The position numbers and the translations under genes were made by a program. From contig OZ244744.1 of assembly GCA_965219455.1 (NCBI GenBank), positions 4,576,001 through 4,640,000 of the forward strand: 64,000 nucleotides of DNA. The letters are read 5' to 3'. Origin of the DNA: Candidatus Latescibacterota bacterium (lineage in GTDB: Bacteria; Latescibacterota; UBA2968; GCA-2709665). Positions 7,584 through 36,797 of this stretch are shown here, piece after piece. Positions within the stretch are counted from its first letter, which is position 1; every line of letters starts with the position of its first letter. The notes beneath the pieces were generated by a model that saw only the letters and a program-made list of their open reading frames with translations, was not told where the DNA came from and did no database searches.

Positions 7584-7697
7584 GCATTCCTGAACATGTT
7601 CGGGCTACAAGCTTCAGCGTGGAATGTTCCCGAACGTTCGCAGATCTTCGGATCAGGTACGCATTACCGTAACTGTTCGGTAATACCGTAGTTAGCA
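7584..7697 (+). promoter_or_regulatory. attI-like site 1, downstream of the integrase remnant
   Basis: Homologous to 27547-27659 up to taataccgtaGTTA, then diverges; bases after GTT pair with the cassette end at 12142-12156. Confidence 0.75.
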
Positions 7698-7826
7698 GAA
7701 ATCGCCCCCACCACCCCCAGAAGAACCGTGATTGCGTGCAAAAATAGCCCCACCCTCCCCACCATCAACACTCGTTCCTATACTTGGATTTATGCGACAG
7801 CGGAGAAATCCCGAGTCAGATCTTCC

Positions 7827-9535
7827 CTAGCGCGGCTTCGCTTTGCTCAGCCGCAACCAAATAGGTGGTAGTCAAGAGCAGATAGTTTTAGGGTATGCAA
7901 AACGGCGTTCATCCCCTATGATGGTGGTACCCACCGCCATCAATGGAAGGAGGAACGCCGTGAAAGACTTCGTGGACCAATGTAGTGAAAAAATCACCGG
8001 AGTGGTATCCTGTTTTGATCGGGTTCTGTTCAAAGGGTACCTGCCGCTGGGATTTGGAACTGCGATGGAGCGGTTCATCAGCAATCAGGGTTTATTGTTG
8101 AAGGACTTCAAGCGTTTTGTGATGACGCATTCCGATACGATCAAAGCCCACGCGGAGGCGATGGCAAACAAGCACGAGCGCCCGTTCATCTATCTGCAAC
8201 GCAACACCATCAGGAAAGAGGACGAAGCGCGACGGTTGGCAAAACACGATGGGATCACGCAAGGCCTGGTCTGTGTGTTTCGGGCCCTGGAAGGCTGCCA
8301 GAGTTTCAAGCTGGTTCCAGGGGAAGGAAGGCCTCGCCTGATCAACGCACAACGGAAATGCCTATGCTACTACTTTTACTGGATTGACCGGGAGTTCGGG
8401 TTGATGCATATCCGCATCCAGTCCTGGTTCCCGCTGGTGGTGCAGATCTGTCTCAATGGCCACGAGTTCTTGGCGCGCAAGCTCGAGCAACACGGCATCG
8501 CCTATGAAAAATCAGACAACGCTTTTCTATGGATTGCCGATGTGGACCGGGCGCAACGCTTTGCCGATCGTTTTGTGGGCAAGAATTGGCCGCGCATTCT
8601 CTCGGCGTTCGCCCGCAAGGTCAACCCCCTGCTCAAAGACCTGCTTTCGGGCATGGACTACTACTGGGTCGTTGACCAAGCCGAGTTCGCCACCGACGTG
8701 ATGTTCCAAAGCCCCCACGCCCTGAAGGTGCTGTATGAAAACCTGCTCAGACACACGGTGCTGTGCTTCTCTCCCCAGGACATCTTGACCTTCCTGGGCC
8801 GCAAACTCCACGGCAATTTTCAGGGCGAAGTCCTCACGGACTTCAAAAACAAACGCCACAAAGGCGCAAGAGTCAAACACCGGATGTGCGAGAACTGGAT
8901 TAAAATGTACGACAAACACGGGTGCGTACTACGCGTCGAAACAGTGATCAACCATCCAAGGCAGTTCAAGGTCCGCCGCTGGGGCATACGGCGAGGACAA
9001 CGCGTGATGGGCTGGTATCCCATGGCCAAAGGCGTGGCCAACCTCTACCGCTATCGGGAAATCTCGTTGACGGCCAACCAACGCTACTTTCAGGCGCTGT
9101 CCGCAGCCCCTGACGCCGCTACCGGACATCAAAGCCTCACCACACTGGCGCGGCCACGCAGGCACAAGGGACGTACCTATCGGGGCTTCAACCCCGCCGA
9201 CCCTGCCGACCTCGCCCTGTTTACCGCTGTGTTGAAAGGCGAACACGCCCTGATGGGCTTCCGCAACCAGGACATCCGAACACACCTCTTCCAACATCCA
9301 GCATCCCTGCTGCAACGCACTCGGCACGCCAATGCCACCAGCCGCCGCCTCAAACGCCTACACGTCCGCGGCCTTATTGCAAAAATCCCACGGTCCAGAC
9401 GGTGGCGCGTCACACCCGAAGGGCACAAAATACTCGCCTTGTCTTTGACCCTTTACCATCAACACCCTACAACTAAACAAGCAGCATGAATAATTATCTA
9501 CGCATTTTGCGTAGAAGTCACACTGTAAGACTCTA
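7827..9535 (+). mobile_element. IS-like element with subterminal hairpins and no terminal inverted repeats
   Basis: gcggct...agccgc(aaccaaa) hairpin at left, tctacgca-ttt-tgcgtaga at right, CTA at both junctions; lies inside a cassette defined by matched ends; boundaries approximate. Confidence 0.6.
7960..9489 (+). CDS. Putative transposase of an unclassified family with C-terminal winged HTH
   Basis: GGAGG then GTG 7960; SCFDRVLFKG, WIKMYDK..LRVETVIN, GFRNQDIR...RLHVRGLIAKIPRSRRWRVT. Confidence 0.65.
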   Translation: MKDFVDQCSEKITGVVSCFDRVLFKGYLPLGFGTAMERFISNQGLLLKDFKRFVMTHSDTIKAHAEAMANKHERPFIYLQRNTIRKEDEARRLAKHDGITQGLVCVFRALEGCQSFKLVPGEGRPRLINAQRKCLCYYFYWIDREFGLMHIRIQSWFPLVVQICLNGHEFLARKLEQHGIAYEKSDNAFLWIADVDRAQRFADRFVGKNWPRILSAFARKVNPLLKDLLSGMDYYWVVDQAEFATDVMFQSPHALKVLYENLLRHTVLCFSPQDILTFLGRKLHGNFQGEVLTDFKNKRHKGARVKHRMCENWIKMYDKHGCVLRVETVINHPRQFKVRRWGIRRGQRVMGWYPMAKGVANLYRYREISLTANQRYFQALSAAPDAATGHQSLTTLARPRRHKGRTYRGFNPADPADLALFTAVLKGEHALMGFRNQDIRTHLFQHPASLLQRTRHANATSRRLKRLHVRGLIAKIPRSRRWRVTPEGHKILALSLTLYHQHPTTKQAA

Positions 9536-9594
9536 AATCCAAAGCTCGAGATAATTATCAACCATTCGATTGACCGAAAACAAGGGAGGCGAGA

Positions 9595-9711
9595 ATGTTC
9601 GGCATAGGTCTTTGGGAAATCCTGCTTGTCCTCCTCTTGGGCATGATAGGTTTCTGGCTGTGGATGCTCATTGAATGTGCAGTTAAGGAACCGTCCACTA
9701 AACTGGGGTAA
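9595..9711 (+). pseudogene. PLDc_N-like small membrane protein, N-terminal half
   Basis: GGAGG RBS; MFGIGLWEILLVLLLGMIGFWLWMLIECAVKEPST; continues at 11470. Confidence 0.65.
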
Positions 9712-9731
9712 CCCCAGAGAGAGGTGACGCG

Positions 9732-11108
9732 ATGGTACCCTGGATCTTCGTGCACAATCCCCTGGAGCACTGGCTGGACGACTACCCGCGCATCTTCGAC
9801 GCGTGGGAGGCGGGAGGGGTGGGCGGCATCGTGGTGGGACGGATGTGGCTCAGGAACGAGGCCGGCATGCCGTTGTGGGGGGACACCCTCACCCCCTCGT
9901 TTGCGGCGGACCCAAAGGTGTACGCCGCGTTCGGCATCAAGCCGCCCCCGGAAACGGCCCGCACCCCCGAGAGGGAGAAGCAGCTCCACGCGCTCCTCGA
10001 CAACGCCGCCTCCCGGGGCTGGCACATCATGATCTTCGACTCCAGAGACGGGCTCCGGCTGCTCTACCAGCGGGGCCAGGGTACCACCAGCGGCCTAGCC
10101 GAGGAGGAGGACCCTTTCGGGGCCATCGAGGTGGCCGCCGGGGTGCACGACCTGGCCAGTGCCTATCCCCAGGCCCACGGCGTCATCCTGGACCAGCCCG
10201 GTGAGACCTTCTACGAACTTGCCTTCCATCGGGGTAAGGCCCTACTGGAACTGGACGGTCGCATGCGGCACCGCTTGGAAGCCATCGGCGCCGATGTGGA
10301 GCGCGTCGCCCGCGGCATGGCGCACCTGAACGAGCGTTTCCACAACCTGACTCCGGATCTGGTGCGCTACCACGCGTCCGGCGGCATGCTGGGGGCACTG
10401 AACCTGTTCGACCTGAACGAGGATGCCCTGTACTGGCTGCGCGCCCGCCGCGAAGCGGCGCGGGGGTTCATGCGCGCCGTGCACGCGCAGATGCAGAGAG
10501 TGGGAGGGAAGGTGGAGCTGGGGGGCATTCCGCGCACCGCCGCTTTCTCGTCACTGACCGGGCACGAATTTGGCGAGATGGCGGAGTACTTCGACTACGT
10601 CTTCCCCAAGCACTACTTCTGGCACCGCGGGAATGACGGCCTCTACGGCACCATGGCCCGCTGGGTGCAGCAGGTCCTGGACTGGAACCCGACCCTGTTG
10701 GAGGCAGACGGCTTCGCCGTGGTCAAGGCCTTCCTGGGGCTGGAGCTTCCCGGGGTGCAGACCCTGGCGGACATGGAACTGGGGTTCCCCGAGGAGTTCT
10801 ACTCGGAGCTGGTGTACAACGAGACGCGCCGAGCGCTGGAGGCCATCGGGGATGTGAACAAGGTGATCGCCTGGGTGTCGACGGGGCGCCGTCCGCACGG
10901 GGGCGAGCCCATGACCGCCCGCGACCTGCACGGCATCCTGACCGCCTCCGAGCGGGCCGGCCTGCAGCGCTTCCTGTTCCAGCCGGACCCTGATCTGAGC
11001 GCCCCCGAATGGAGCGTGATCTCCGACCTGTGCGGCAAGCGCTGGCACCCGAGCCGCGACGGGTACTGGCCCTCGGACTCCAGCAGGCCCGACGCGTTCA
11101 GCAGGTAG
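9732..11108 (+). CDS. Conserved hypothetical protein (possible TIM-barrel/glycoside hydrolase-like), GC-rich
   Basis: 458 aa ORF with GAGG RBS and strong GC3 bias. Confidence 0.75.
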   Translation: MVPWIFVHNPLEHWLDDYPRIFDAWEAGGVGGIVVGRMWLRNEAGMPLWGDTLTPSFAADPKVYAAFGIKPPPETARTPEREKQLHALLDNAASRGWHIMIFDSRDGLRLLYQRGQGTTSGLAEEEDPFGAIEVAAGVHDLASAYPQAHGVILDQPGETFYELAFHRGKALLELDGRMRHRLEAIGADVERVARGMAHLNERFHNLTPDLVRYHASGGMLGALNLFDLNEDALYWLRARREAARGFMRAVHAQMQRVGGKVELGGIPRTAAFSSLTGHEFGEMAEYFDYVFPKHYFWHRGNDGLYGTMARWVQQVLDWNPTLLEADGFAVVKAFLGLELPGVQTLADMELGFPEEFYSELVYNETRRALEAIGDVNKVIAWVSTGRRPHGGEPMTARDLHGILTASERAGLQRFLFQPDPDLSAPEWSVISDLCGKRWHPSRDGYWPSDSSRPDAFSR

Positions 11109-11469
11109 GCATGCGCCCGTTGCGGGACTTATCTGCGGGATTCGTCGCTTCGCCGACTCGGGGAATCGACGTCCCCAGGAACCGGCTAATCACAACGTGA
11201 TTCACCCAATGCGCCGGAAGGCCCGATCCGCCGCGACCCCTTGGCAACGGACGCCACAGGCCCTGATCCCCGGCCGGCGTTTCCTCCCTGGCACATTGAC
11301 ATCAGGAGACCCCTTACGTATCGTTCAGAGAGATATGACACGTAAGGGAGACTTGACCATTTGTTGCCATCCTGGTCCTGTCTTCTCGCGTTTCCTCGGG
11401 TCTCTGATCTGCCCCTGCGAGCGCATCATGCTGTTGCTGGCATTGGGCGCCCGTCAATGTCAGTGGTAG

Positions 11470-11595
11470 CCTGGGCAGAAGTTGGGTTGGGGCATTACAA
11501 TTCTTGGCTCCAATGTCCTTGGTGCTTCTATCTATTTCTTATTTCGAAGACCTAAGCGGATTCGGGAACGCAATCAGGAATCACTTGAGCCGTAG
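11470..11595 (+). pseudogene. PLDc_N-like protein, C-terminal half
   Basis: PGQKLGWGITILGSNVLGASIYFLFRRPKRIRE...; matches the KxxW...GAxIY..RRP pattern. Confidence 0.65.
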
Positions 11596-12149
11596 CGAAC
11601 ATATCGAGCCTCCCATACACTTCGTGCGTGGTGCTCCGAAGTGACGGCCTCGGACATCGACGTAGAAGATCTGTATTGTCGGGCCATGAGCGCCGTCGCA
11701 AAATAAAGCGCTCCTGGACCCACCTCAACACCACTACCCACACATTGGCCTGTGTCACACCGGTTGCTTGATTTTTACACCTATCGAAGTGGCGAAAAGG
11801 CGACGGAGAAAATTGAATATCCGGCGGAATGCACCTTCGTCTTGTCCAAAAGCTCACTTGCTAATGACTTGACTATGCCGAAGGCTGCGCCCCTACCCAG
11901 AGGGCATGCCGCTAAGTTCGGGATCACTTTGCTCGCGTGCCGCTTGGAGGGGCCACTGCCCTTGCTGGTCCTGACGTGAAGGTTTTGGAGAGATGTCGTG
12001 ATCTCTTCGGTATTGCCTAGGGCTAAACCATTTTTTCGAATCGGATCTCAGGTCATCCCAATCAGATGAGAGGAACCAAACCTATGTCGCACGCTGTATG
12101 TACGCGCCGATCTCCAGGACCGAGAGGGGCGCCACCCCGATGCGACTTC

Positions 12150-12301
12150 TGCTAACACGGGCTATTCGCTCCGGTCGCTTCGCTCCCTCCGGCCCTTCGG
12201 GCACATTCCCCTTTGTCACGTCGCTTGCTGAGAGACGCAAGCGCCGCGCCAATCCGGCTTCGCCGGACCGGGGAACGTCGTATAGCCCGGGAACGTTATC
12301 T
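12150..12301 (+). repeat. Long multi-hairpin attC-like site
   Basis: TGCTAACacgggctat...atagcccgggaacGTTATCT with several internal hairpins. Confidence 0.85.
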
Positions 12302-12330
12302 GCAATTGCCCCAGAGATCGCGATGTCTAC

Positions 12331-12870: not shown

Positions 12871-12931
12871 TAAAAAACACTGAAGACGACTTCGAGATTC
12901 TTAACGCATCGCATTAGCTAGGGACAACTGC

Positions 12932-13019
12932 AGCTAACACGTCGGGCTGCGGCTCCGGCCCTTTCGGGCCTCCGCAGCAACCTGCTGGCGCAGGTTCGCA
13001 GCCCGCGGGAACGTTATAA
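12932..13019 (+). repeat. attC-like site
   Basis: AGCTAACacgtcgggctgcg...cgcagcccgcgggaacGTTATAA. Confidence 0.85.
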
Positions 13020-13209
13020 GCCATGCCAGCGTTCCTCCAAAAGCAGGCGGCCGTCCTGGCCGCCCAAGAGAATCTCACTACGTTCTTCAGTAGCGGAAAT
13101 TTCGCTTGAAGAACTTAATTAAGATATGTAGATTTATAGCAGGTCTATAGGTGACCAATCGCAGCAGAATTGAACCGTCTTTACCATATTAAAAACAATA
13201 TGATATATA

Positions 13210-13855: not shown

Positions 13856-13974
13856 TCCCTCGTTCTTCTTTCAAGATTTCCGCTGAATAATTCATTTAGC
13901 GGAAATTCTGTTTCAGCGACAAAGCGGCCTTGCCATCCGTGGCAAGGCCGCCCCCGCCCCCCGGCTGGCACAAC

Positions 13975-14058
13975 ACATAACACGTCCGTGCCCGGCTACG
14001 GGCCATACGGCCCTTCGCGCAACCGCTTCGCGGTTCGGGCACGGCGAAAACGTTAGCC
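13975..14058 (+). repeat. attC-like site (main family)
   Basis: ACATAACacgtccgtgcccg...caaccgcttcgcggttcgggcacggcgaaaacGTTAGCC. Confidence 0.9.
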
Positions 14059-14169
14059 GCAATTAATAGAGCATTGATTTCCATACGTAGTTAGACAGCA
14101 CGAGACAGCCTGTCCGCACTTTTACAGTCCAATTGCGACGCAATTCTTACAGCAACACAAGAGGATATA

Positions 14170-15090: not shown

Positions 15091-15169
15091 GAAGTCTGTC
15101 TGAATGAGTTAGCGGCTACATTTTGATACATAAGGCCCCGACAATGAACGGATACGAATTAATCACGAC

Positions 15170-15270: not shown

Positions 15271-15447
15271 GAAAGCGGCGCAAGTGTTCCCAGCCACATT
15301 ACCCCAAAAAATCGCGCACAAAAGGCAACAACCACCTTATTTTGAAGTCTTCCACGGCGAATAAACTGTATCAAGTTTTTCGGCTACGAATGGAATATGC
15401 CGAACTTTCTCCGCAGAATCACAAGTCAGGCCGTGCGGAGGTCCACT

Positions 15448-16575
15448 ATGAAGTGGGAACTGCTGCATCCGGACCAGGAGCAAGCCGAGGATGTACCCTG
15501 TAGGCGGGCGGCCTTCGGCGGGATGTTGAGCTACAATGGATGCGTCTACCTGTTCGGGGGGATAAAAGTGATGTACGGCCGGCCGAAAGGGCCTGGAGAT
15601 CTTTCCGTCCAGGGCTCATTGAACGACCTGTGGCGCTACGACCCGGATCGAGGCCGGTGGACGCGGTTGGAAGACCACGATGGGCGCATCGGGTTCAGAC
15701 CGTCCGATACCAGACCGTGTACCCGGAAGCTCACGACCTGGCTGCCCGTGAACGGCAGGCTTTATCTTTTTGGCGGGTCCTCAGTGCGGGGCCCCGGCAA
15801 GAGGGAGATCAAGCTGAACGATCTCTGGGCCTACGATCCGAAGACAGCCTCGTGGGAGCTGTTAGAGCCCGACGACGGGCGGGCATCAGGAATAACGGCG
15901 GATGGGCATCGTCCCGCCGGTTCGGGCGGGATGGGGGCGGCCGTTCTGGGTGATTACCTGTATCTGATGGGGGGACATGGCGCGATGACGCACGCACAGC
16001 TGTGGACCTACAAGGCGCCGGCCGGGAAATGGGAGCACCTGGGGCCTGCATCGAATGGACGCAACGGTTGGCCGCCGAAACGATACTGTCCCGTGCTGGC
16101 CGGCTGGAACGGCAGGCTCTACCTGTGGGGCGGTCGGGACAGTCAGGGTCGAGCGCCGGAGTTCTACAACGATCTGTGGGAATACGATCCCGACGGAGGC
16201 GCCTGGACCTGCATTCAGGAGAACCGGTCGGATGATGTTGCACGGCCTTCCCCTCGGTACGGGCTGGGATACGCTGTGATCGGAGATCACCTGTATCTGT
16301 TCGGAGGATTTGCAGGAGGGGAAGGGGAGCACCCCCAGCTGAACGATCTGTGGCAGTACGATCTTCGTGCCGGCCGGTGGGACTGTCTATATCCACACAA
16401 CGGTGCGGAGGATTACTCTGCTGGCGCCGAACGTCCCGGTGTCAGGCGAATCCCCGTTATGACAGTGGGGGGCGAGTCCGTCTATCTCTTCGGGGGGCTG
16501 GATCTGGCTACCGGGCCGCACGGGGACGGGCCGCTGGCGGCGTACAACGATTTCTGGCACGGAACACCGGCCTGA
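15448..16575 (+). CDS. Kelch-repeat protein, copy 2
   Basis: Near-identical to 3268-4395. Confidence 0.9.
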   Translation: MKWELLHPDQEQAEDVPCRRAAFGGMLSYNGCVYLFGGIKVMYGRPKGPGDLSVQGSLNDLWRYDPDRGRWTRLEDHDGRIGFRPSDTRPCTRKLTTWLPVNGRLYLFGGSSVRGPGKREIKLNDLWAYDPKTASWELLEPDDGRASGITADGHRPAGSGGMGAAVLGDYLYLMGGHGAMTHAQLWTYKAPAGKWEHLGPASNGRNGWPPKRYCPVLAGWNGRLYLWGGRDSQGRAPEFYNDLWEYDPDGGAWTCIQENRSDDVARPSPRYGLGYAVIGDHLYLFGGFAGGEGEHPQLNDLWQYDLRAGRWDCLYPHNGAEDYSAGAERPGVRRIPVMTVGGESVYLFGGLDLATGPHGDGPLAAYNDFWHGTPA

Positions 16576-16604
16576 TAGGGCATTTCTTAAAGGAGATTCC
16601 GTAG

Positions 16605-16694
16605 TTGCATGCGAAGACCGAAGTCGATCCGATCCGGTTCGAGGTGATCCGCAACGCGCTGCTGAAAGCGACGGAGGAGATGGCGATTGCGCTA
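16605..16694 (+). pseudogene. Hydantoinase B/oxoprolinase N-terminal fragment (30 codons) fused to unrelated sequence
   Basis: VDPIRFEVIRNALLKATEEMAIAL. Confidence 0.7.
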
Positions 16695-18041: not shown

Positions 18042-19121
18042 TTGGGGCCATCACCGTTATGCGAAAGTGAGTTCGATTTGTTTAGAGCGGATCTCTTCCA
18101 GGCGCACCTGGAAAACTGGGAACTCATTCTGCAGGAGCGAACCGTTGAAGCCATCGAACGGATCGCGTCTGTTCCTGGCGTTGCGGGTGTGATTCTTGGG
18201 GGTAGCGTTGGGCGAGGAATGGCGTGGCCTATATCAGATATAGACCTCATCTACATTACTACCAGGGCGGCGGACAACAGTCTTCCAAAAGCAGTGGACG
18301 AGCTTGCGTTGTCCATCACAAGGGAGTGGGCTCGGGACACGTGGCCGACGTCTGTTGACGCAGGCCGACTCCATTTTACAGCCGATGAGGCAGACGACTT
18401 GATCAAAGGCAAGCGTCACTTGGATAAGCTGATGGCCAGTGAGAGGACTTTCCATGCGACCGACAAGAGCCACCTCGGTCAATCAGTTCACGCGTCTGAG
18501 GATTGCGATACTCCTGCATTTGTTGTGCTACTTTCCGATGGTCGATTTGACCCAACGGTTGTCCGGGCACGCCAAATCGAGCGAGTCAGACGTGTAACCA
18601 GGCTCGCCCATCGAGTGAAGTCACATCTGCAGGCAGGTCGTCTGATTGAGGCAGGGATCTCTATACAGGAACTCGCGCGTGTTATAATCCCATATCTGAA
18701 GGAAAGGTGGGGGCATGGAGATCGGTCCTTTGGAAGGGTTTTCACTCGTTTTTGCGTTCTGGCTCACGAGCACCAGGAAGAAGGAATTGCGAATCGCCTC
18801 ATTCGACTGTTCTCTCTTACGGCGGATGAGGTAGAAGCAAGGTACGCCAAGGCTCCCGCTAATGTTGAGGAGCGGCACATCACATCGTATCTATCCCGCC
18901 TGGCCGTGGGCGAGGAGATCACGGAGCTCGATGACAAACGCGATGTCCTGTATGCCTATACGTGGTATGCAGTTCGTACTGGTGAAACTGGTTCGTGGCT
19001 CCTCAATGAGGATCTGCACAAGTCTCAACTCAAGTTGTCACTGGATCAAACAGCATCCATATGGGCCGAGGTGGTCTCGAAGGAGCCGGATTGCGTATCC
19101 AGCGAACTCACCTTCGCATAA
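18042..19121 (+). CDS. Nucleotidyltransferase-domain protein
   Basis: GGSVGRGMAWPISDIDL (GS-x10-DxD); start uncertain; stop in the attC core. Confidence 0.75.
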   Translation: MGPSPLCESEFDLFRADLFQAHLENWELILQERTVEAIERIASVPGVAGVILGGSVGRGMAWPISDIDLIYITTRAADNSLPKAVDELALSITREWARDTWPTSVDAGRLHFTADEADDLIKGKRHLDKLMASERTFHATDKSHLGQSVHASEDCDTPAFVVLLSDGRFDPTVVRARQIERVRRVTRLAHRVKSHLQAGRLIEAGISIQELARVIIPYLKERWGHGDRSFGRVFTRFCVLAHEHQEEGIANRLIRLFSLTADEVEARYAKAPANVEERHITSYLSRLAVGEEITELDDKRDVLYAYTWYAVRTGETGSWLLNEDLHKSQLKLSLDQTASIWAEVVSKEPDCVSSELTFA

Positions 19122-19199
19122 CACGTCCGTGCCCGGCTTCGGGCCATTCGGCCATTCGCGCAACCGCTACGCGGTTCGGGCACGGAGAAAACGTCGCAC
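19116..19199 (+). repeat. attC-like site (right core GTC)
   Basis: GCATAACacgtccgtgcccg...gggcacggagaaaacGTCGCAC. Confidence 0.88.
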
Positions 19200-22820: not shown

Positions 22821-22909
22821 CGCGAACAAGCAGGACTTCGGCTCCGGCGCATTCGAACGTCCGACCTGACTTGCTTGCGGAAAGTTCGCAGCCCGAGCGG
22901 GCGTTTTCG
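22821..22909 (+). repeat. attC-like site (degenerate)
   Basis: gACttccgcGAAC...gttcgcagcccg...GTTTTCG. Confidence 0.65.
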
Positions 22910-22940
22910 GAAATAGACTCATTCGAGGGAGTTACCAACG

Positions 22941-23708: not shown

Positions 23709-23721
23709 TAGAGTCTACTTC

Positions 23722-23810
23722 CGATAACAGCACGTTTTGCGCTACGGCGCTGATCGCGCCTTGGCCTTCGGCAACCGCTTCGCGGTTCCCAAACCGGCAT
23801 AACGTTACAC
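23722..23810 (+). repeat. attC-like site
   Basis: CGATAAC...ggccttcggcaaccgcttcgcggtt...aacGTTACAC. Confidence 0.85.
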
Positions 23811-27527: not shown

Positions 27528-27546
27528 GGACGGTAGCTGATTAATT

Positions 27547-27659
27547 GCATTCCTGAACATCTTCGGCTACAAGCTCCAACGTAACATGCTTTCGAACGTT
27601 CGCAGATCCTCCGACCAGATACGAATTACCGTTGCTGTTTTGTAATACCGTAGTTATAG
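27547..27659 (+). promoter_or_regulatory. attI-like site 2
   Basis: gcattcctgaacat...ggctacaagct...cgaacgttcgcagatc...taataccgtaGTTATAG; homologous to 7584-7697. Confidence 0.75.
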
Positions 27660-27669
27660 GAAATGCCAA

Positions 27670-28335: not shown

Positions 28336-28369
28336 GATTGCTGTGGCAAGGAAAAAGGTTTAGCACTAG

Positions 28370-28452
28370 CTATAACGCGTCCGTGCCCGGCTGCGGGACA
28401 TTCGGCCCTTCGCGCAACCACCGTGCGGATCGGGCACGGCGAGACGTTAGCT
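28370..28452 (+). repeat. attC-like site (main family)
   Basis: CTATAACgcgtccgtgcccg...cgggcacggcgagacGTTAGCT. Confidence 0.88.
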
Positions 28453-29572: not shown

Positions 29573-29601
29573 TCGATACGTATCACCCGGGCGGCAACTC
29601 C

Positions 29602-29687
29602 AGCTTTCACGACGGGCTTCGGCTCCGGCGTATTCGCGCCTTCGCCAATCCTGCTTCGCAGGTCCGCGGCCTGCGAGGACGATATAT
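29602..29687 (+). repeat. attC-like site (right core GAT)
   Basis: AGCTTTCacgacgggcttcggctccgg...cctgcttcgcagg...GATATAT. Confidence 0.7.
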
Positions 29688-29722
29688 AAAATGGGAAGAG
29701 AGAATCAACATAACTTGAGGTA

Positions 29723-30625: not shown

Positions 30626-30669
30626 GCAATACACCGGCAGAGAATTGCCCGAGCGAAAATTCCCACTTT

Positions 30670-30763
30670 ATATATCACGTCCATTTGCGCTGCACGGCAT
30701 ACGGTGCCTGGCGCTTGCGCGCACCCCGCATGCACGGGGTCGCAAATGGTGAGGACTTTAGAG
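30670..30763 (+). repeat. attC-like site (left core ATC)
   Basis: ATATATCacgtccatttgcg...cgcaaatgg-tgaggac-TTTAGAG. Confidence 0.75.
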
Positions 30764-30800
30764 GCCATGCGAAGCAGGCCGATTAAAACGGAAGTTTCAG

Positions 30801-31379: not shown

Positions 31380-31391
31380 GTCGTGTACAGC

Positions 31392-31471
31392 CTATAACAC
31401 CGTGCCCCCGGCTTCGGGCTTACGCCCCTCGCGCAACCGCTTCGCGGTTCGGGGGCACGAAGACGTTACAC
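31392..31471 (+). repeat. attC-like site
   Basis: CTATAACaccgtgcccccg...cgggggcacgaagacGTTACAC. Confidence 0.9.
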
Positions 31472-31545
31472 GACATGGGAAGACTGCGGCCAGAGAGCGC
31501 GCGCCGCCATCCACAACATTTGACAATATCTCGTTCGGGGGCACA

Positions 31546-33384
31546 ATGTCTGATCATCGAATGAATTTCCTAATCAGAGAAATGACAAAAGAGTTTCGAA
31601 ACGTTTGTGCCAGCGTGGCAATGGTTGTCCGTACTGCCCCAAGTCAGACAGTGCGCCTGGTTGTCCTAACGCTAGGCCTCGGGTCAGGACCAGCTGCGAT
31701 CCTGTACATTCAGAAGATAGTCATTGATGAAGTCGTGGAGCACAAGGACTATTCAGTTGATGCATCTTTGTCAGTTGCTCTTATCGTGGGGATGATTGCC
31801 TTTGTTACATGCAATCTTCTGATGGACTCCATCGAGACGATTCAGGGATTCCGAGTGCAGATTTTTGGGCGGGTTGTTGAGGGCAGAATAAAGGAGAGGG
31901 TATATCATAAGGTCGCAACGTTTAACGATATAGCACTTTTTGAGACACCCGAGCTATTGAACGAACTCGAGCTTGCGCTTCGCGGAGTTGGTAGACTAAG
32001 GAGTCTTACCGCCGTAGTTGGGAATCTTTTGATCGGAACGTTCATGGTGATTCCTGTATTGGTTCTGTCAGCTTCGATCGAGTGGTGGGTTCCGATCGTG
32101 ATTTTCGGCCTGATGGTGCCGTCTGTTTGTGTTCAGCTCTATTACGAACAAAAGGCGTGGAACGTAGAGGCGCGACAAGCAAGTCTTCAAAGGCAGGTCG
32201 GGATCTTCGAAAGGATCCTGACTTCGAAGGAATTCGCAAAGGAGCTTCGGTTGTTCGGGATCCAGTCGTTGATCCTCGATCGTTGGAAGGATAAGTTCTG
32301 GTCTGTCTTCAGAGAAAGCTACGAGGTGACGAGGCGTGGAACTTATCAGATTCTATTTTGGTCGCTACTCAGCGTTGTCGGAGTCGGTGCGCCGTTCGTG
32401 TACGTTGTTCTCGCAGTCTTGGATGGGCGTTTTTCGGTCGGCGATTTAGCCCTCTACGTTGGTCTTGTGTACCAGGTACAGCGCAGCATCTTCATCCTGG
32501 TCGACAATACGTCCAGGCTTCGGACTGTTGGGTTAGCTATCGGGCCTATCTTTCGCATTCTCAATCTTGAACCGGAACTGAAGGATCAAGGCGGAGAAAT
32601 CGTTGAACGAGATGAAACAGCCATTGACATTGACGGACTGTCCTTCTCGTATCCCGGTGAGACTCGTCTTGTACTGAAAGACATTAATCTGAGACTGCGA
32701 GCCGGGGAGACAGTTGCAATTGTTGGAGAGAACGGAGCAGGAAAAACCACGCTTGTAAAGTTGCTATGTCGGCTCTTCGACCCTGTGAAGGGATCAATTT
32801 CCTGGAATGGTATGGATATCAGGGAAATTGGCTTAGCGGATCTAAGACGAAGAATCGGTACGGTGATGCAGGACTTCGCACGGTTTCCGCTTTCGGGGGC
32901 AGAGAACATTGGCATCGGGTCAATTGACAACCTGTGTGATAGGGATGCTATTGAAGCCGCAGCCACCGGTGCCGGACTTCGTGAGGTCCTTAAGACGCGG
33001 CCAGGATTTATGGACAAGCACTTAACAAGGGAACTCGATGACGGTATTGAACTATCTGGGGGGGAGTGGCAGCGGGTAGCACTTGCTCGAGCCTTCATGA
33101 GGCTGTCGCGATGCAGCCTGGTAATCCTGGACGAGCCTACTGCGGCCCTGGATCCGAAAACGGAGTATGAAATACACTCCGTTCTGGCAGACATTGCTAA
33201 GGACAAAACTTCCGTGATTATTACACATCGGCTTTCCCTCGCTCGAATTTCTGACAGGATCGTTGTTCTTGAAGATGGTAGAGTCGTGGAGGAGGGCACG
33301 CATGAGGAGTTGATGTCGATCAAGGGCGTGTATTCATCAATGTTCATGCGGCAAGCCATTCGTTACACGGATAATCTGGCATAG
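31546..33384 (+). CDS. ABC exporter, fused permease/ATPase (peptide-exporter type)
   Basis: TM helices, AKELRLF, GENGAGKT, LSGGEWQR, ILDEPT. Confidence 0.92.
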   Translation: MSDHRMNFLIREMTKEFRNVCASVAMVVRTAPSQTVRLVVLTLGLGSGPAAILYIQKIVIDEVVEHKDYSVDASLSVALIVGMIAFVTCNLLMDSIETIQGFRVQIFGRVVEGRIKERVYHKVATFNDIALFETPELLNELELALRGVGRLRSLTAVVGNLLIGTFMVIPVLVLSASIEWWVPIVIFGLMVPSVCVQLYYEQKAWNVEARQASLQRQVGIFERILTSKEFAKELRLFGIQSLILDRWKDKFWSVFRESYEVTRRGTYQILFWSLLSVVGVGAPFVYVVLAVLDGRFSVGDLALYVGLVYQVQRSIFILVDNTSRLRTVGLAIGPIFRILNLEPELKDQGGEIVERDETAIDIDGLSFSYPGETRLVLKDINLRLRAGETVAIVGENGAGKTTLVKLLCRLFDPVKGSISWNGMDIREIGLADLRRRIGTVMQDFARFPLSGAENIGIGSIDNLCDRDAIEAAATGAGLREVLKTRPGFMDKHLTRELDDGIELSGGEWQRVALARAFMRLSRCSLVILDEPTAALDPKTEYEIHSVLADIAKDKTSVIITHRLSLARISDRIVVLEDGRVVEEGTHEELMSIKGVYSSMFMRQAIRYTDNLA

Positions 33385-33443
33385 TTATGAGTATAGCAAG
33401 CTCATCGAAATGACGTACTCGATTTTGATAAAGGGGACATGAA

Positions 33444-33605
33444 ATGAAGACGTATGGACGATGTCACGATCAATTTGTTTCTCAAGAATTTGGAAGCGAA
33501 GGGTTGCTGCTCAGTCTTCAAACGGGGCAATATTTCTCACTGAATCACACTGCTATTGCAGGCACCCAGTTCACGGAGTTTCCACGACCGATTACAGTGG
33601 GTTAA
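33444..33605 (+). pseudogene. PqqD/RRE-like N-terminal fragment
   Basis: VSQEFGSEGLLLSLQTGQYFSLNHTA, then runs into the attC. Confidence 0.55.
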
Positions 33606-33679
33606 TGCTGCGCCGCCTTCAGGCGGCTTGGCCTTCGCCAACCGGCTAAGCCGGTTCACAAACCCACAAAACGTTACCT
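33589..33679 (+). repeat. attC-like site
   Basis: CGATTACagtgggtt...aaccggctaagccggtt...aacccacaaaacGTTACCT. Confidence 0.75.
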
Positions 33680-33719
33680 GCAATGCGCCGCTACGGCCGG
33701 TTCCGGGCCGAGAAAACCA

Positions 33720-34697
33720 ATGGAATCCCGCTATCCCAGATCTAGAGACGAAACGGGCCCACTGCCTGATCAGCCGGAGATCACGGAACTCTGCAAGCGA
33801 TTCTGGGGTCTGGAAGTAACAAACGTCCGCAGGGCGAATTCACGGTGCGTCTTCTTTTGCGACAGTTTGCGGGACGGACTCGTTGTGTTCCGCGTGAATC
33901 CGGGATGGGACGGTTCGACCCATCCCAAAACCATTGTGGAATTCGTTCGACACCTTGCCGATCGCGGCGCGCCGTGCCCTGATATCCGTCCAACCACGGA
34001 TGGCAGCCCCTGCAAATCCGTTCGAGACCTCGTGATTTCGGTCGAGAGCTTCCTGGAAGGAGAGGTTGTAGACCGCGTCGATACGCTCCGCAACGTGGGG
34101 GAGGCTCTCGCACGGGTTCACGATGCGAGCGAAGACTTTCCGATCTACAGTTCAGAAGTCAAAGATGCGCGGCTGTACATCTCGGATGCTCTCGAGTATT
34201 GCGAGAGGACGAGGTTCTCCTCGAACGCGGCAGATGCAGTCACTCGGCTTCGAGCACAGTTGAAATACACACCGAACAAGATGAACGTTCGTTGGCTCTT
34301 CTGTCGTGGAGATGTGCGAAGTTGGAACACGATTGCTTCCCCGTCAGGTGAGGTCCGATTCACCGACTTTAATTCTGCTCACTTCGCTCCGGCGCTTGTG
34401 GATGTGGTGATGGTCCGGATGCAATGGCTGATGGGGACCGTGGGTCGACAGCTTACAGACGAGGAAATGCAGCGGTTCGTGGAGGGGTACTTCTCAGTCC
34501 GGCCTCCCTCAGATGATGAACGTACCGCACTCCCGCTTATCTTCGCGGCCTACTATGCCAGGCGCCTCTGCCAGCTCCACCGGAAATGGGGTCCGAGGTC
34601 GCCTAATCGGAAAACCTGGAAACTGGAAGACCGAATTCTCGCTCTCCCGCATGCGGCGATTCGTATGGGCGAGGCTGCAATCGAAGGCATAGATTGA
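33720..34697 (+). CDS. Phosphotransferase (APH/homoserine kinase type II-like)
   Basis: GEALARVH, RGDVRSWN, TDFN. Confidence 0.78.
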   Translation: MESRYPRSRDETGPLPDQPEITELCKRFWGLEVTNVRRANSRCVFFCDSLRDGLVVFRVNPGWDGSTHPKTIVEFVRHLADRGAPCPDIRPTTDGSPCKSVRDLVISVESFLEGEVVDRVDTLRNVGEALARVHDASEDFPIYSSEVKDARLYISDALEYCERTRFSSNAADAVTRLRAQLKYTPNKMNVRWLFCRGDVRSWNTIASPSGEVRFTDFNSAHFAPALVDVVMVRMQWLMGTVGRQLTDEEMQRFVEGYFSVRPPSDDERTALPLIFAAYYARRLCQLHRKWGPRSPNRKTWKLEDRILALPHAAIRMGEAAIEGID

Positions 34698-34797
34698 AAG
34701 GCAAGAATCAGGCAACCCGATGCTCGCCGACCCCCGAGGCCCGAATTCATCGCGCGCAAAGAACAGAACCATTCCAAACCAAAATGTGAGGTAACAA

Positions 34798-35754
34798 GTG
34801 GCGGCATCCCAAGTGATTGAGCTTGCGGAATTTCGGCGAAAGCTAAGCGCAATTCTACCGGAAAATTGTAGACCTTTTGTGTGTCAAGGGTCACCTTACG
34901 ACTGCAAGGTTTTTGTCGTAGGTCTAAATCCCGCCACCCCAATGAAGGATGTCTTCTGGCAGTATTGGAGTGATTCTACAGGTTTTGACAAAGATTCCTG
35001 GTTCGAAGCCTACAAGATTGAAAGGAAGAGTCGCCCCCTTAAACCAGGAAAGAAGAGCCGTCGTGATGTTGGCACTACTCGGCGCAATTTGAACAAACTC
35101 GCTGATTTAATTGGTACTGACGAAATATTGGAGACGAATATCTATTCGAAGCCAACCGAACATTACACTGAACTTCGGGCTGAGGAGAAGGATACGGTAG
35201 TTTTCGAGTTCCTTATGACTGAAATCAAGCCAAAGTTAATCATTTCGCACGGAAAAGATCCTGCGAGATATTTCGATCGTAAAGTTCGAGAGTTTGGCGA
35301 TTTTGAGATAGAAACGGTCATCAAAAAGGGCAATAGCTATGATATCATGAGTGTGCCACACTTATCAATAGGCTGGTCAACTAAAAAATTGGCAGTATTG
35401 GCTGATATCATATACAATAATATCCGAACTGCGAAGGGCAGCGTTTCCGCGAATTCAATTGTCGAACGTAACCAAGAACCTGTGGGCTTAAACAGCCGCG
35501 ACGTCCTAGATTTTCCCGATTGTTTAGAATACGTCAATGAGAATGGTCATGCGAATTCTATTGCTGCGATCCATAGGAGTAAAGCCAATTTGGATCCAAG
35601 CATATCAATTGAGTATTGGTGGGGCAACGCTGAAACGCCATCAGAGCGCGCAAGATGTATTCGTGGAGCGATTCGTAGAATCTCTGCTGAGCTATTGAAA
35701 GAGGGAAGATGCTCCAAGAATTTCAACGCAACATATCGAGTCGTATCTGGATAA
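34798..35754 (+). CDS. Uracil-DNA glycosylase-like domain protein with C-terminal extension
   Basis: VFVVGLNPA, LETNI, IKPKLIISHG, VPHLS. Confidence 0.6.
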   Translation: MAASQVIELAEFRRKLSAILPENCRPFVCQGSPYDCKVFVVGLNPATPMKDVFWQYWSDSTGFDKDSWFEAYKIERKSRPLKPGKKSRRDVGTTRRNLNKLADLIGTDEILETNIYSKPTEHYTELRAEEKDTVVFEFLMTEIKPKLIISHGKDPARYFDRKVREFGDFEIETVIKKGNSYDIMSVPHLSIGWSTKKLAVLADIIYNNIRTAKGSVSANSIVERNQEPVGLNSRDVLDFPDCLEYVNENGHANSIAAIHRSKANLDPSISIEYWWGNAETPSERARCIRGAIRRISAELLKEGRCSKNFNATYRVVSG

Positions 35755-35839
35755 TTTCAGAGCGAGACAAAATTCCAATGGTGTGCGTTGTAGGTCAGCC
35801 ACTCTAAGGCTTCGCTCTTGATTGGCGCGCGCTGCCATC

Positions 35840-35930
35840 ATTTGACACCGCGTCTGCGCTTCAGTCGCTACGCTCCATCGGCCATTCGGCAACCCGCTTC
35901 GTGGGTTCGCAAGTGAACAGAACGTTATCC
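35840..35930 (+). repeat. attC-like site
   Basis: ATTTGAC...ggccattcggcaacccgcttcgtgggttcgc...GTTATCC. Confidence 0.75.
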
Positions 35931-35933
35931 AAC

Positions 35934-36707
35934 ATGAAAACGCACAGATTTAGTGGTCTTTTCTTTGACCTTTACGGTACAATCCTTGTTTACGGGGACA
36001 TGATAATGGCCTGGGAAGATTGGTTTGACTCCATCCGTGAGTCAATGAAGGAATTTGGAGTGAATGTCGAGAAAGACTGCCTTCGAAAAATCTGCACTGG
36101 ATTTTTCAGCAAACCGGAACCCCCTATGGATGGCGTCAAAGGCCTAACGCCGTATGAGCGACGTATTGGGGCTTTGGGAGACCAGCTTGGAGTCGAATTT
36201 ACAGCGCGAGAGATGTCAGACATTTCGGAAAGGAGTGTACACTCTTGGTCACGACACACCTTTCCCGATCCTCAAGCCCAAAGCCTACTGAACGATTTGA
36301 GGGGCTCGCATCGAATGGCCCTAATCACGAATTTCGATCATCCACCCCATGTACATTCTCGCCTCGCGGAACTGGGACTCAGACAGTATTTCGATGCTGT
36401 TGTTGTATCGGGAGAGGTAGGTTCAAAAAAACCCGATCCAGGGATCTTCACCCTGGCGCTGGACAAGATTGGAATGGCAGCAGAGGACGTTGCGTTCATT
36501 GGCGATTCTATTGAGGACGACATCGGAGGGGCTAAAGCAATTGGAATGACTCCAATTCTGATTGATAGAAAAGGCAGGGGCACCGAGCCGGCCGCCCGAG
36601 ATTTCGGCAGCGAGAATTCTGATAATGAGCCAGGTTCCAGCACAGCATGTATAGATGGCGTACAGATTATTTCGTCGTTAGGTGCGCTTCGAAACATACT
36701 CATATAG
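35934..36707 (+). CDS. HAD-family hydrolase
   Basis: FFDLYGT, ITN, KKPDP, FIGDS..DD. Confidence 0.92.
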   Translation: MKTHRFSGLFFDLYGTILVYGDMIMAWEDWFDSIRESMKEFGVNVEKDCLRKICTGFFSKPEPPMDGVKGLTPYERRIGALGDQLGVEFTAREMSDISERSVHSWSRHTFPDPQAQSLLNDLRGSHRMALITNFDHPPHVHSRLAELGLRQYFDAVVVSGEVGSKKPDPGIFTLALDKIGMAAEDVAFIGDSIEDDIGGAKAIGMTPILIDRKGRGTEPAARDFGSENSDNEPGSSTACIDGVQIISSLGALRNILI

Positions 36708-36721
36708 TTTGTTTTCACGTC

Positions 36722-36797
36722 GGATAACAGCGCGGATTGCGCTGTGGCGCCTTCGGCAACCCCCTGCGCGGGTTCGCAAACCGGCGAAACGTTATGA
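36722..36797 (+). repeat. attC-like site
   Basis: GGATAAC...ccttcggcaacc...ggttcgcaaaccggcgaaacGTTATGA. Confidence 0.85.

What the first reader, a model, noticed from the sequence alone, without database searches (positions are those of the whole stretch)
7691..36728. Cassettes carry private 15-20 bp terminal inverted repeats with a conserved position-11 A/C mismatch
Seen, as cassette start versus reverse complement of the same cassette's end: 7691 GTTAGCAGAAATCGC / GTTAGCAGAAGTCGC (12156); 12295 GTTATCTGCAATTGCCCC / GTTAGCTGCAGTTGTCCC; 13013 GTTATAAGCCATGCCAGC / GTTATGTGTTGTGCCAGC; 22903 GTTTTCGGAAATAGACTC / GTTATCGGAAGTAGACTC; 27653 GTTATAGGAAATGCCAAA / GTTATAGCTAGTGCTAAA; 29681 GATATATAAAATGGGAA / GATATATAAAGTGGGAA; 35924 GTTATCCAACATGAAAAC / GTTATCCGACGTGAAAAC; also 5571 GTTAGACGAAAGGCAG / GTTAGACCTCGGGCAG. 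The arm sequence differs for every cassette, yet position 11 is A versus G in all eight (an A-C mismatch on the top strand, a T-G wobble on the bottom). Array-wide consensus: AC-N6-TAAC on the left, GTTA-N6-A(T/G) on the right. Established: canonical attC pairing outside the crossover is about the 7-bp R''/R' box. Inference: the long outer stem forms only in the excised or looped cassette, so it could bias directionality, make excision cassette-specific, or record how cassettes are made. This is the best candidate here for an undescribed variant of integron biology.
Basis: partly seen in the sequence, partly recalled or inferred. Interest (0 to 1): 0.9.

Follow-up and report, generated by a model that had tools for sequence, protein, structure and literature searches.

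The report
Long outer stem on cassette recombination sites
Each gene cassette in this large chromosomal array begins with about 17 bases that pair with the bases just before its own recombination site, always with one odd pair at position 11, a longer and more patterned stem than ordinary integron cassettes show.

Summary
All eight quoted start/end pairs are in the sequence as written, with A versus G at position 11. The window is one strand-uniform cassette array.

Across seven genomes of this clade, 94 cassettes had a matching R box. In these, start and end arms pair at positions 12-16 in 63-78% of cases, against 26-41% for non-cognate pairs. Position 11 is Watson-Crick in only 5 of 94 and A/G in 67.

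As a control I took 127 cassettes from 32 IntI-linked loci of other phyla. Their pairing fades to background by position 13 and shows no dip at 11. That fits the published "9-11 nt" extension (PMC2727003).

So this is a lineage-specific variant of a known feature, not a new principle. The stem can form only in the excised circle. There the arms are about 9 kcal/mol more stable than the hybrid arms in the array. Any bias in direction of recombination is inferred, not shown.

A side finding may matter more. The arrays are headed by a tyrosine recombinase that lacks the IntI-specific domain, and no canonical IntI was found in the genus.

The parts
5571..5590 (+). start arm of a cassette (R' plus outer arm); its partner is 6375-6394
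   Evidence: positions 1-7 and 12-16 match, position 11 is A/G, positions 8-10 do not match.
6375..6394 (+). R'' and its 5' flank (end arm) of the cassette that starts at 5571
   Evidence: attC hit 6388-6470, E = 1.8e-11.
7307..7567 (+). C-terminal remnant of a tyrosine recombinase gene, 86 codons
   Evidence: PF00589; 44% identity to a canonical IntI and 52% to the recombinase type that lacks the IntI insertion.
7571..7690 (+). conserved attI-like sequence that ends ...GTAATACCGTA just before the cassette start
   Evidence: three copies in this genome end at a GTTA cassette start; the sequence recurs in the arrays of relatives.
7691..7708 (+). start arm; its partner is 12139-12156
   Evidence: 15 of 18 match, position 11 is A/G.
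12139..12156 (+). end arm (R'' plus 5' flank) of the cassette that starts at 7691
   Evidence: attC hit 12150-12301.
12295..12312 (+). start arm; its partner is 12921-12938
   Evidence: 15 of 18 match, position 11 is A/G.
12921..12938 (+). end arm of the cassette that starts at 12295
   Evidence: attC hit 12932-13019, E = 1.1e-19.
13013..13030 (+). start arm; its partner is 13964-13981
   Evidence: positions 12-18 all match, position 11 is A/G, positions 6-10 are mostly mismatched.
13964..13981 (+). end arm of the cassette that starts at 13013
   Evidence: attC hit 13975-14058, E = 3.2e-22.
   Evidence: the best 18-base frame within the extended pair 18054-18078 / 19100-19124 has 17 of 18 matches. 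No attC hit was called upstream of it.
19103..19122 (+). end arm of the cassette that starts at 18056
   Evidence: attC hit 19116-19199.
22903..22920 (+). start arm; its partner is 23711-23728
   Evidence: 16 of 18 match, position 11 is A/G.
23711..23728 (+). end arm of the cassette that starts at 22903
   Evidence: attC hit 23722-23810.
27540..27652 (+). second attI-like sequence in the window, with no recombinase remnant beyond its last codons
27653..27670 (+). start arm; its partner is 28359-28376
   Evidence: positions 1-7, 10 and 12-14 and 16-18 match, position 11 is A/G.
28359..28376 (+). end arm of the cassette that starts at 27653
   Evidence: attC hit 28370-28452.
29681..29697 (+). 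start arm (the R' is GATATAT, not GTT...); its partner is 30660-30676
   Evidence: 16 of 17 match, position 11 is A/G.
30660..30676 (+). end arm of the cassette that starts at 29681
   Evidence: attC hit 30670-30763.
35924..35941 (+). start arm; its partner is 36711-36728
   Evidence: 16 of 18 match, position 11 is A/G.
36711..36728 (+). end arm of the cassette that starts at 35924
   Evidence: attC hit 36722-36797.
13975..14058 (+). typical attC site of this family: R box, asymmetric internal loop, stem of about 11 bp with one bulged base, and a three-way junction with the conserved inner hairpin AACCGCTTCGCGGTT
   Evidence: bottom strand -26.9 kcal/mol, z = -3.9.

Best explanation
The 'private terminal inverted repeats' are the two halves of an extended R arm of each cassette's own attC site.

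Shown:
- The window is a same-strand array of attC-like sites of one family.
- The crossover (G|TT) lies inside a stem whose distal part extends about 17 bp. In the array, the right half of that part therefore sits at the start of the cassette and the left half sits just 5' of R''.
- The arms differ between cassettes but pair within a cassette. All four Watson-Crick pair types occur at positions 13-17.
- Position 11 is almost never Watson-Crick. The top strand has A opposite C in 71% of cases, which is a T.G wobble on the bottom strand.
- The pattern holds in seven genomes of the clade. It is absent from a broad sample of IntI-linked arrays of other phyla.

Inferred:
- The full stem forms only in the excised circular cassette. 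There it adds about 9 kcal/mol over the hybrid arm present in the array. That should help the free cassette fold and be bound for insertion, and leave resident sites weaker substrates for excision.
- The conserved letters at positions 1-4, 8 and 11-13 span about the length of a tyrosine-recombinase arm. They are probably contacts of the cognate recombinase, with position 11 as a structural landmark about one helical turn from the cleavage site.
- That recombinase is probably the Xer-like enzyme found at the head of these arrays, which lacks the IntI-specific domain.
For: - All CM hits with E <= 0.01 lie on the + strand; the only minus-strand hit (5512-5605, E = 0.024) overlaps the plus-strand attC at 5498-5577, as an imperfect palindrome would.
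- Window's genome, 23 adjacent pairs with at least 6 of 7 R-box identities. Identity by position: 8.83; 9.65; 10.61; 11.04; 12.78; 13.74; 14.65; 15.61; 16.61; 17.48; 18.43. It is mostly at or near background after that (.04 at 19.43 at 22). Non-cognate pairs give .24-.41 at positions 12-18.
- Six other genomes from three further families, 71 of 96 adjacent pairs with at least 6 of 7 R-box identities. Identity by position: 11.06; 12-16.63-.76; 17.46; about background (.25-.35) from 18. Matches at positions 12-18 average 3.78 in adjacent pairs and 2.15 in non-cognate pairs, p = 4e-16. Taken one genome at a time, five of the six give p < 0.05.
- Pooled 94 cassettes. At least 4 of 6 Watson-Crick pairs at positions 12-17 in 66 of 94, against 9.1% of non-cognate pairs. 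At least 5 of 6 in 47 of 94, against 2.7%. Position 11 is A/G in 67, A/T in 11, A/C in 6, and Watson-Crick in 5.
- Control. 127 cassettes from 32 of 80 IntI loci of other phyla, found by a generic hairpin finder and an exact R-box match. Identity by position: 8.78; 9.64; 10.56; 11.50; 12.46; 13.29; then background.
- The same generic method on the focal clade gave at least 4 of 6 matches at positions 12-17 in 27 of 41 cassettes. In the control set the figure is 10 of 127, with none reaching 5 (p = 4e-6).
- Energies of hairpins made from 20-nt arms: cognate bottom strand -13.2, cognate top strand -12.6, non-cognate -4.0 kcal/mol. The bottom strand is the more stable in 64 of 94.
- Recombinase. 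Six of six fetched loci with an intact or nearly intact copy have attC sites of this family directly downstream on the same strand.
- It lacks the IntI insertion (alignment). It scores 197-213 bits on TIGR02249, below the 265-bit cut-off, and profile positions 179-235 are unmatched.
- No canonical IntI was found in 0 of 14 genomes of the genus, while 13 of 14 carry the attC family.
Against: - No experiment or read evidence shows that these cassettes move. This genome has only recombinase remnants, so the array may be inert.
- Only about two thirds of validated cassettes have a clear outer stem: 66 of 94 have at least 4 of 6 pairs. Twenty of the 43 adjacent pairs in this genome lack even R-box identity.
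- Pairing declines gradually outward, from .76 to .46. That is also what slow decay of an ancestral hairpin would give.
- The bottom-strand advantage is small, 0.66 kcal/mol. Outside position 11, wobbles do not favour the bottom strand significantly (54 versus 38, p = 0.12).
- The recombinase family is very large and often multi-copy, so it could belong to a mobile element that targets arrays.
- The control set holds neither Vibrio nor class 1 arrays. For those I rely on one sentence in PMC2727003; the two papers it cites were not held.
Confidence: 0.7

Rival explanations
1. Residue of origin, not function. Each cassette was born with a long hairpin, for example a terminator-like palindrome turned into an attC. 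The crossover split that hairpin, and the outer pairing is simply decaying without selection.
For: Pairing falls off gradually outward, from .76 at position 12 to .46 at position 17. About one third of validated cassettes lack a clear outer stem. One duplicated cassette differs by a 12-nt insertion inside its start arm.
Against: The same profile, with the same sharp non-Watson-Crick position 11 and the same outer limit, recurs in seven genomes of four families, on cassettes with unrelated arm sequences and all four pair types. IntI-linked cassettes of other phyla show no such residue beyond position 12.
Confidence: 0.15
2. Family consensus only. The matches come from a conserved extended R'/R'' sequence shared by all sites, not from cassette-specific pairing.
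For: Positions 1-4, 8, 11 and 12 are conserved across the array. G at position 8 occurs in 43 of 47 starts, A at position 11 in 40 of 47, and T or G at position 12 in 40 of 47. Non-cognate identity reaches .77 at position 8 and .41 at position 12.
Against: Cognate pairs beat non-cognate pairs at positions 12-24 (p = 8e-9) and at positions 12-18 in the relatives (p = 4e-16). At least 5 of 6 pairs occur in 47 of 94 cognate pairs against 2.7% of non-cognate pairs.
Confidence: 0.03
3. The conserved A11-T12-G13 is the start codon of the cassette gene. The mismatch would then be a by-product of coding constraint on one arm.
For: ATG stands at positions 11-13 in 17 of 47 starts. Three or four of these open the main ORF, for example at 36801 and 35934.
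Against: Thirteen of the 17 ATGs open fewer than 50 codons. Twenty-three further starts have A at position 11 without ATG. The partner base is itself conserved as C, in 33 of 44 ends, and a coding constraint on the other arm does not explain that.
Confidence: 0.04
4. The units are transposon-like elements with private terminal inverted repeats that move by their own mechanism. The attC-like hairpins would be spacers between them rather than integron sites.
For: No canonical IntI is present. The arms look like 15-20 bp terminal inverted repeats.
Against: Most units carry no transposase. The arms start exactly at the conserved GTT/AAC of an attC-like palindrome. The R-box cognate rule of integron cassettes is obeyed. 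All units have one orientation. Target-site duplications were not looked for.
Confidence: 0.05

Closest known systems
Canonical integron attC (59-base element) R''/R' box and its published 9-11 nt extension
   Same: The cassette begins at G|TT. The first bases of a cassette complement its own R'', not the neighbouring one. Pairing goes beyond the 7-bp box (PMC2727003, introduction passage seen; PMC8352920, introduction passage seen). My control set pairs to about position 12.
   Different: Here pairing is interrupted at a fixed position 11, which is Watson-Crick in 5 of 94 cassettes. It then resumes for positions 12-17. The control set has neither feature.
Unpaired features of attC sites that set strand choice (extrahelical bases, unpaired central spacer, variable terminal structure)
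   Same: A conserved departure from perfect pairing that differs between the two strands: A.C on the top strand, T.G on the bottom (PMC5027507 and PMC2727003, passages seen).
   Different: The known features lie inside the site, between the R box and the loop. This one lies outside the R box, in a part of the stem that exists only in the circular cassette. Its effect on strand choice is untested, and the computed bottom-strand advantage is only 0.66 kcal/mol.
Binding arms of Xer/Cre-type tyrosine recombinases, 11-13 bp outward from the cleavage site (recalled, not from a call)
   Same: The conserved letters at positions 1-4, 8 and 11-13 span about one such arm. The recombinase at the head of the arrays is Xer-like.
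   Different: The arm here is formed by intrastrand pairing of two distant segments and carries a fixed non-Watson-Crick pair. Pairing continues for about four more base pairs.
[quoted passage not shown] 2016, PMC4889954, passages seen)
   Same: By IntegronFinder's definition, as described in those passages, this array would count as an attC cluster without IntI, with a non-IntI recombinase gene or remnant beside it.
   Different: That paper found such recombinases beside fewer than three attC sites and concluded they are not integron integrases. Here one recombinase family stands at the head of same-strand arrays in six of six fetched loci. Supplementary Figures S1 and S5 of that paper could bear on this and could not be seen.

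Membership tests
Integron gene cassette array (attC sites) | Imperfect palindromes bounded by ...AAC (R'') and GTT... (R') that fold as hairpins | tested here: met
   Covariance models built from the sites find 33-38 hits in the window. The consensus structure has 8 pairs with compensatory changes. Bottom-strand folds give z = -3.9 to -5.1 for three of four sites and z = -1.3 for the fourth.
Integron gene cassette array (attC sites) | Sites on one strand, separated by mostly single ORFs in the same direction | tested here: met
   All model hits with E <= 0.01 lie on the + strand; one E = 0.024 hit on the minus strand (5512-5605) overlaps the plus-strand attC at 5498-5577. ORF lists.
Integron gene cassette array (attC sites) | R'' of a site complements the first bases of its own cassette, as expected for a crossover at G|TT | tested here: met
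   Identity at positions 5-7 is .91-1.00 in cognate pairs against .27-.32 in non-cognate pairs, and .92-.94 against .28-.30 in the relatives. A duplicated cassette shares its sequence from the GTT onward apart from one insertion.
Integron gene cassette array (attC sites) | Unpaired central spacer and extrahelical G and T on the L'' arm | tested here: inconclusive
   The folds show an asymmetric internal loop (3-5 nt on the 5' arm of the bottom strand) and one bulged base on the 3' arm. They do not show the canonical two extrahelical bases (four sites only).
Complete integron (IntI-defined) | Adjacent integrase carrying the IntI-specific insertion of about 35 residues (TIGR02249 above its cut-off) | tested here: not met
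   The best score in this genome is 88.9 bits against a cut-off of 265. The recombinase family at the head of related arrays scores 197-213 bits and lacks the insertion. None of the 14 genomes of the genus has a canonical IntI.
Complete integron (IntI-defined) | An attI site next to the integrase gene where cassettes are inserted | tested here: inconclusive
   A conserved sequence of about 114 nt follows the recombinase remnant and ends exactly at a cassette start. But it occurs several times per array, and its function was not tested.
Complete integron (IntI-defined) | Integrase-catalysed recombination of the folded bottom strand | not testable with these tools
   No assay was possible. No read evidence was sought.
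Published 9-11 nt R-box extension | Consecutive complementarity of 9-11 nt from the crossover, then none | tested here: not met
   Positions 8-10 do pair (.59-.97). Position 11 does not (.04-.06). Pairing then resumes at positions 12-16 (.61-.78). The control arrays do fit the published description.

The most novel reading that the evidence does not exclude
These arrays belong to a distinct class of integron-like system.
- Its integrase is a Xer-like tyrosine recombinase that lacks the IntI-specific domain, the part that reads the extrahelical bases of ordinary attC sites.
- At least one member has an extra N-terminal region of about 95 residues.
- The gene points toward the array.
- Its sites have a three-way junction and a 17-bp R arm with a fixed non-Watson-Crick pair at position 11.

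On this reading, the extended arm and position 11 replace the canonical extrahelical-base code as the recognition signal. They also make the free circular cassette a far better substrate than resident sites.
Probability: 0.35. Interest if true: 0.85.

Novelty: new variant of a known kind. Interest (0 to 1): 0.62.

Why it matters
Integron sites are usually described as a 7-bp R box plus internal unpaired features that are read by an IntI-specific domain.

This site family is shared by 41 of 61 related genomes searched. It adds an outer helix that exists only in the excised cassette, and a fixed odd pair about one helical turn from the cleavage site. If that matters for recombination, it offers a simple physical reason why very large chromosomal arrays stay put while free cassettes still insert. 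It also offers a new design element for structure-specific recombination sites.

These arrays are headed by a recombinase without the IntI domain. That bears on an open question: what maintains the many attC clusters found in genomes that lack IntI (PMC4889954)?

Tried and rejected
- Unbiased inverted 18-mer scan. The background was too high to be evidence on its own: 110 pairs, of which 6 to 7 were cassette pairs.
- First generic hairpin finders. They were too strict, giving 3 and 10 hits. The looser version recovers 10 of 25 model hits in the window among 67 candidates. I therefore used it only together with an exact R-box match.
- Start-codon explanation for A11-T12-G13. Rejected: 3 to 4 of the 17 ATGs open a long ORF.
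- Model R2 on 80 IntI loci of other phyla gave 1 weak hit. Near the canonical IntI of G017 it gave none. The attC family therefore does not travel with canonical IntI in these samples.
- The two papers cited for the 9-11 nt extension (Rowe-Magnus 2003; Sundstrom 1991) are not held.
- Larouche and Roy 2011 (PMC3053210) and the 2024 synaptic-complex paper (PMC11641012) held none of my search terms.
- Vibrio and class 1 arrays were not tested. The one genome-contig scan returned other phyla only.
- No sequencing-run search was made for circular junctions, because this genome has no intact recombinase.
- Bottom-strand wobble enrichment outside position 11 was not significant (54 versus 38, p = 0.12).


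Full report
**What is in the window**

The 64-kb window is one large cassette array. A covariance model built from six hand-picked sites found 34 hits at E up to 10; all but one lay on the + strand, between 256 and 62008, and the exception (5512-5605, E = 2.2) overlaps the plus-strand hit at 5498-5577. The model covers only R'' to R', not the flanks. A second model built from 31 hits gave 38 hits in the window plus the 20 kb upstream.

The genome is a single 5.84-Mb contig. The array runs from about 4,547,789 to about 4,641,000, with scattered sites beyond that and a small second cluster near 2.54 Mb.

The sites fold on the bottom strand in this order: an R box, an asymmetric internal loop, a stem of about 11 bp with one bulged base, and a three-way junction that carries a conserved inner hairpin. 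The cassettes carry unrelated genes, including Kelch-repeat, ankyrin, metallo-beta-lactamase-fold and ABC ATPase genes.

**Check of the observation**

An unbiased scan for inverted 18-mers within 6 kb added a ninth pair, 18056/19122. It also returned about 100 chance pairs, so it proves nothing by itself.

The decisive test is anchored on the attC sites. In this genome there are 47 cassette starts (44 R' sites and 3 attI-like junctions) and 44 ends, which give 43 adjacent pairs and 2025 non-cognate pairs.
- Matches at positions 8-20 average 5.95 in adjacent pairs and 4.05 in non-cognate pairs (p = 2e-7).
- A banded local score over positions 12-24 gives p = 8e-9.

The non-cognate comparison already contains the family consensus. 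The excess is therefore specific to each cassette.

**Anatomy of the arms**

Among the 23 adjacent pairs with at least 6 of 7 R-box identities, identity by position is as follows.

| Position | 8 | 9 | 10 | 11 | 12 | 13 | 14 | 15 | 16 | 17 | 18 | 19 |
|---|---|---|---|---|---|---|---|---|---|---|---|---|
| Identity | .83 | .65 | .61 | .04 | .78 | .74 | .65 | .61 | .61 | .48 | .43 | .04 |

From position 20 identity is close to the .22-.27 seen in non-cognate pairs (range .13-.43).

Position 11 is A in 40 of 47 starts. Its partner is C on the top strand in 33 of 44 ends.

ATG stands at positions 11-13 in 17 of 47 starts, but only 3 or 4 of these open a long ORF. A start codon therefore does not explain the conserved A.

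**Other genomes of the clade**

The attC family occurs in 41 of 61 related genomes searched. I fetched arrays from six of them, in three further families, and found 104 sites. Two truncated or partial hits were dropped, which left 102 sites and 96 adjacent pairs.

In the 71 pairs with at least 6 of 7 R-box identities the profile repeats.

| Position | 8 | 9 | 10 | 11 | 12 | 13 | 14 | 15 | 16 | 17 | 18 onward |
|---|---|---|---|---|---|---|---|---|---|---|---|
| Identity | .97 | .80 | .59 | .06 | .76 | .75 | .70 | .65 | .63 | .46 | about background (.20-.35) |

Pooling all seven genomes gives 94 cassettes.
- Position 11 is A/G in 67, A/T in 11, A/C in 6, and Watson-Crick in 5.
- At least 4 of 6 Watson-Crick pairs at positions 12-17 occur in 66 of 94, against 9.1% of non-cognate pairs.
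- At least 5 of 6 occur in 47 of 94, against 2.7%.
- All four pair types occur at positions 13-17.

**Comparison with ordinary integrons**

Bouvier et al. 2009 (PMC2727003) state in a passage of their introduction, seen, that for most cassettes self-pairing extends beyond the 7-nt boxes to 9-11 consecutive nt. The two papers they cite for this were not held.

For my own control I fetched 80 loci around canonical IntI genes of many phyla. The focal attC model finds essentially nothing in them. I then located cassettes with a generic hairpin finder and required an exact match at R-box positions 4-7. Such matches make up 5.0% of candidate pairs, against 0.39% expected by chance. After removing duplicates, 127 cassettes remained in 32 loci.

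| Position | 8 | 9 | 10 | 11 | 12 | 13 | 14 onward |
|---|---|---|---|---|---|---|---|
| Identity, control | .78 | .64 | .56 | .50 | .46 | .29 | background |

This agrees with the published figure. The control shows neither a dip at position 11 nor pairing at positions 13-17.

The same generic method on the focal clade gave 41 cassettes. Of these, 27 have at least 4 of 6 matches at positions 12-17. In the control set 10 of 127 do, and none reaches 5 (p = 4e-6).

Vibrio and class 1 arrays were not in the control set.

**Energetics**

I folded hairpins made in silico from the two 20-nt arms, using DNA parameters.

| Arms | Strand | Mean energy (kcal/mol) |
|---|---|---|
| Cognate, 20 nt | bottom | -13.2 |
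| Cognate, 20 nt | top | -12.6 |
| Non-cognate, 20 nt | either | about -4.0 |
| Cognate, positions 8-20 only | bottom | -5.7 |
| Non-cognate, positions 8-20 only | bottom | -1.8 |

- For positions 8-20 alone, the cognate versus non-cognate difference gives p = 9e-33.
- The bottom strand is the more stable in 64 of 94 cassettes, by 0.66 kcal/mol on average.
- Outside position 11, wobble pairs do not significantly favour the bottom strand (54 versus 38, p = 0.12).

**Interpretation**

The arms are the distal part of each attC's R arm, and the crossover splits that arm. In the array every site has a hybrid, weakly paired R arm. Only the excised circle rebuilds the full stem of about 17 bp.

That much follows from the sequence and from the accepted crossover point. 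The R-box cognate rule and a duplicated cassette support that point here.

The rest is inference:
- that the stem aids folding and binding of the free cassette;
- that it damps excision;
- that position 11 is a recognition landmark.

**The recombinase**

This genome has no canonical IntI. The best TIGR02249 score is 88.9 bits against a cut-off of 265. It has three C-terminal remnants of a tyrosine recombinase on the array strand (an N-terminal piece also matches beside the middle one, at 4,556,745-4,556,999). Each is followed by a conserved sequence of about 114-120 nt; for two of the three, at 4,547,789 and 4,583,691, I read that sequence ending exactly at a GTTA cassette start. For the copy near 4,557,000 the end was not read. 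A further copy of this sequence, at window 27540-27652, retains only the last few codons of the gene.

Intact relatives of that recombinase lack the IntI-specific insertion of about 35 residues (alignment). They score 197-213 bits on TIGR02249, with profile positions 179-235 unmatched. They carry PF13495 and PF00589. In G047 there is an extra N-terminal region of about 95 residues with no family match.

In all six fetched loci with an intact or nearly intact copy, attC sites of this family lie directly downstream on the same strand. In G017 the same holds for one copy, whereas its canonical IntI has no such site nearby. None of the 14 genomes of the genus has a canonical IntI, and 13 of 14 have the attC family.

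There are caveats. The protein family is very large, widespread and often multi-copy. The attI-like sequence occurs several times per array. Cury et al. 2016 concluded that recombinases without the IntI domain next to attC sites are not integron integrases, but they saw them beside fewer than three sites (PMC4889954, passages seen). Their supplementary figures could not be seen.

**Verdict**

It is a lineage-wide variant of a known feature, the extension of R-box pairing. It has two properties I did not find described in six searches: a fixed non-Watson-Crick position 11, and a further helix of 5-6 bp beyond it.

Its function is untested. The link to a non-IntI recombinase is the more novel lead.

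Noticed in passing
window 7307-7690; L133:1093-2220; L134, L135, L137, L140; L019:2828-3679: The arrays of this attC family are headed by a tyrosine recombinase that lacks the IntI-specific insertion and points toward the cassettes. In this genome only remnants are left. In six of six fetched loci of relatives, an intact or nearly intact copy is followed by same-strand attC sites.
   Followed up: partly
window 7571-7690 and 27540-27652; genome 4,547,670-4,547,788 and about 4,557,180-4,557,294: A conserved attI-like sequence of about 114 nt occurs four times in this array and several times per array in genus relatives, often without the recombinase gene. It contains two ATTACCGTA-like direct repeats and ends at a cassette start. 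A true attI would be expected once per integron.
   Followed up: partly
window 14052-14075 versus genome 4,550,841-4,550,865: Two copies of one cassette are 99.9% identical over 1213 nt. They differ by a 12-nt insertion right after position 10 of the start arm, inside the outer stem. Both versions can still pair partly with the shared end arm, in different registers.
   Followed up: partly
window 3168-4476 and 15348-16656: A Kelch-repeat gene segment is duplicated at two places in the array, 97.8% identical over 1309 nt.
   Followed up: no
window 42400-52500: A stretch of about 10 kb has no attC hit and includes long minus-strand ORFs (for example 45158-46528). It also holds paired inverted repeats at 45054-45080/46585-46611 and 46592-46626/48223-48257. 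It may be an insertion into the array.
   Followed up: no
window 7843-9489 and 9732-11108: Two long ORFs of 548 and 458 residues have no Pfam match. They sit together in one unusually long cassette of 4.4 kb (7691-12156).
   Followed up: no
window, position 19 of the arms in the 23 validated cassettes: Identity at position 19 is .04 against .22 in non-cognate pairs, as if pairing were avoided just past the end of the stem. This was not seen in the six relatives (.35).
   Followed up: no
G020 (six places, for example C1:4843392-4844129): Six near-identical copies of a homologue of the recombinase lie in 713-residue open frames, each with one in-frame TAG. This suggests a multi-copy mobile element related to the array recombinase.
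   Followed up: no
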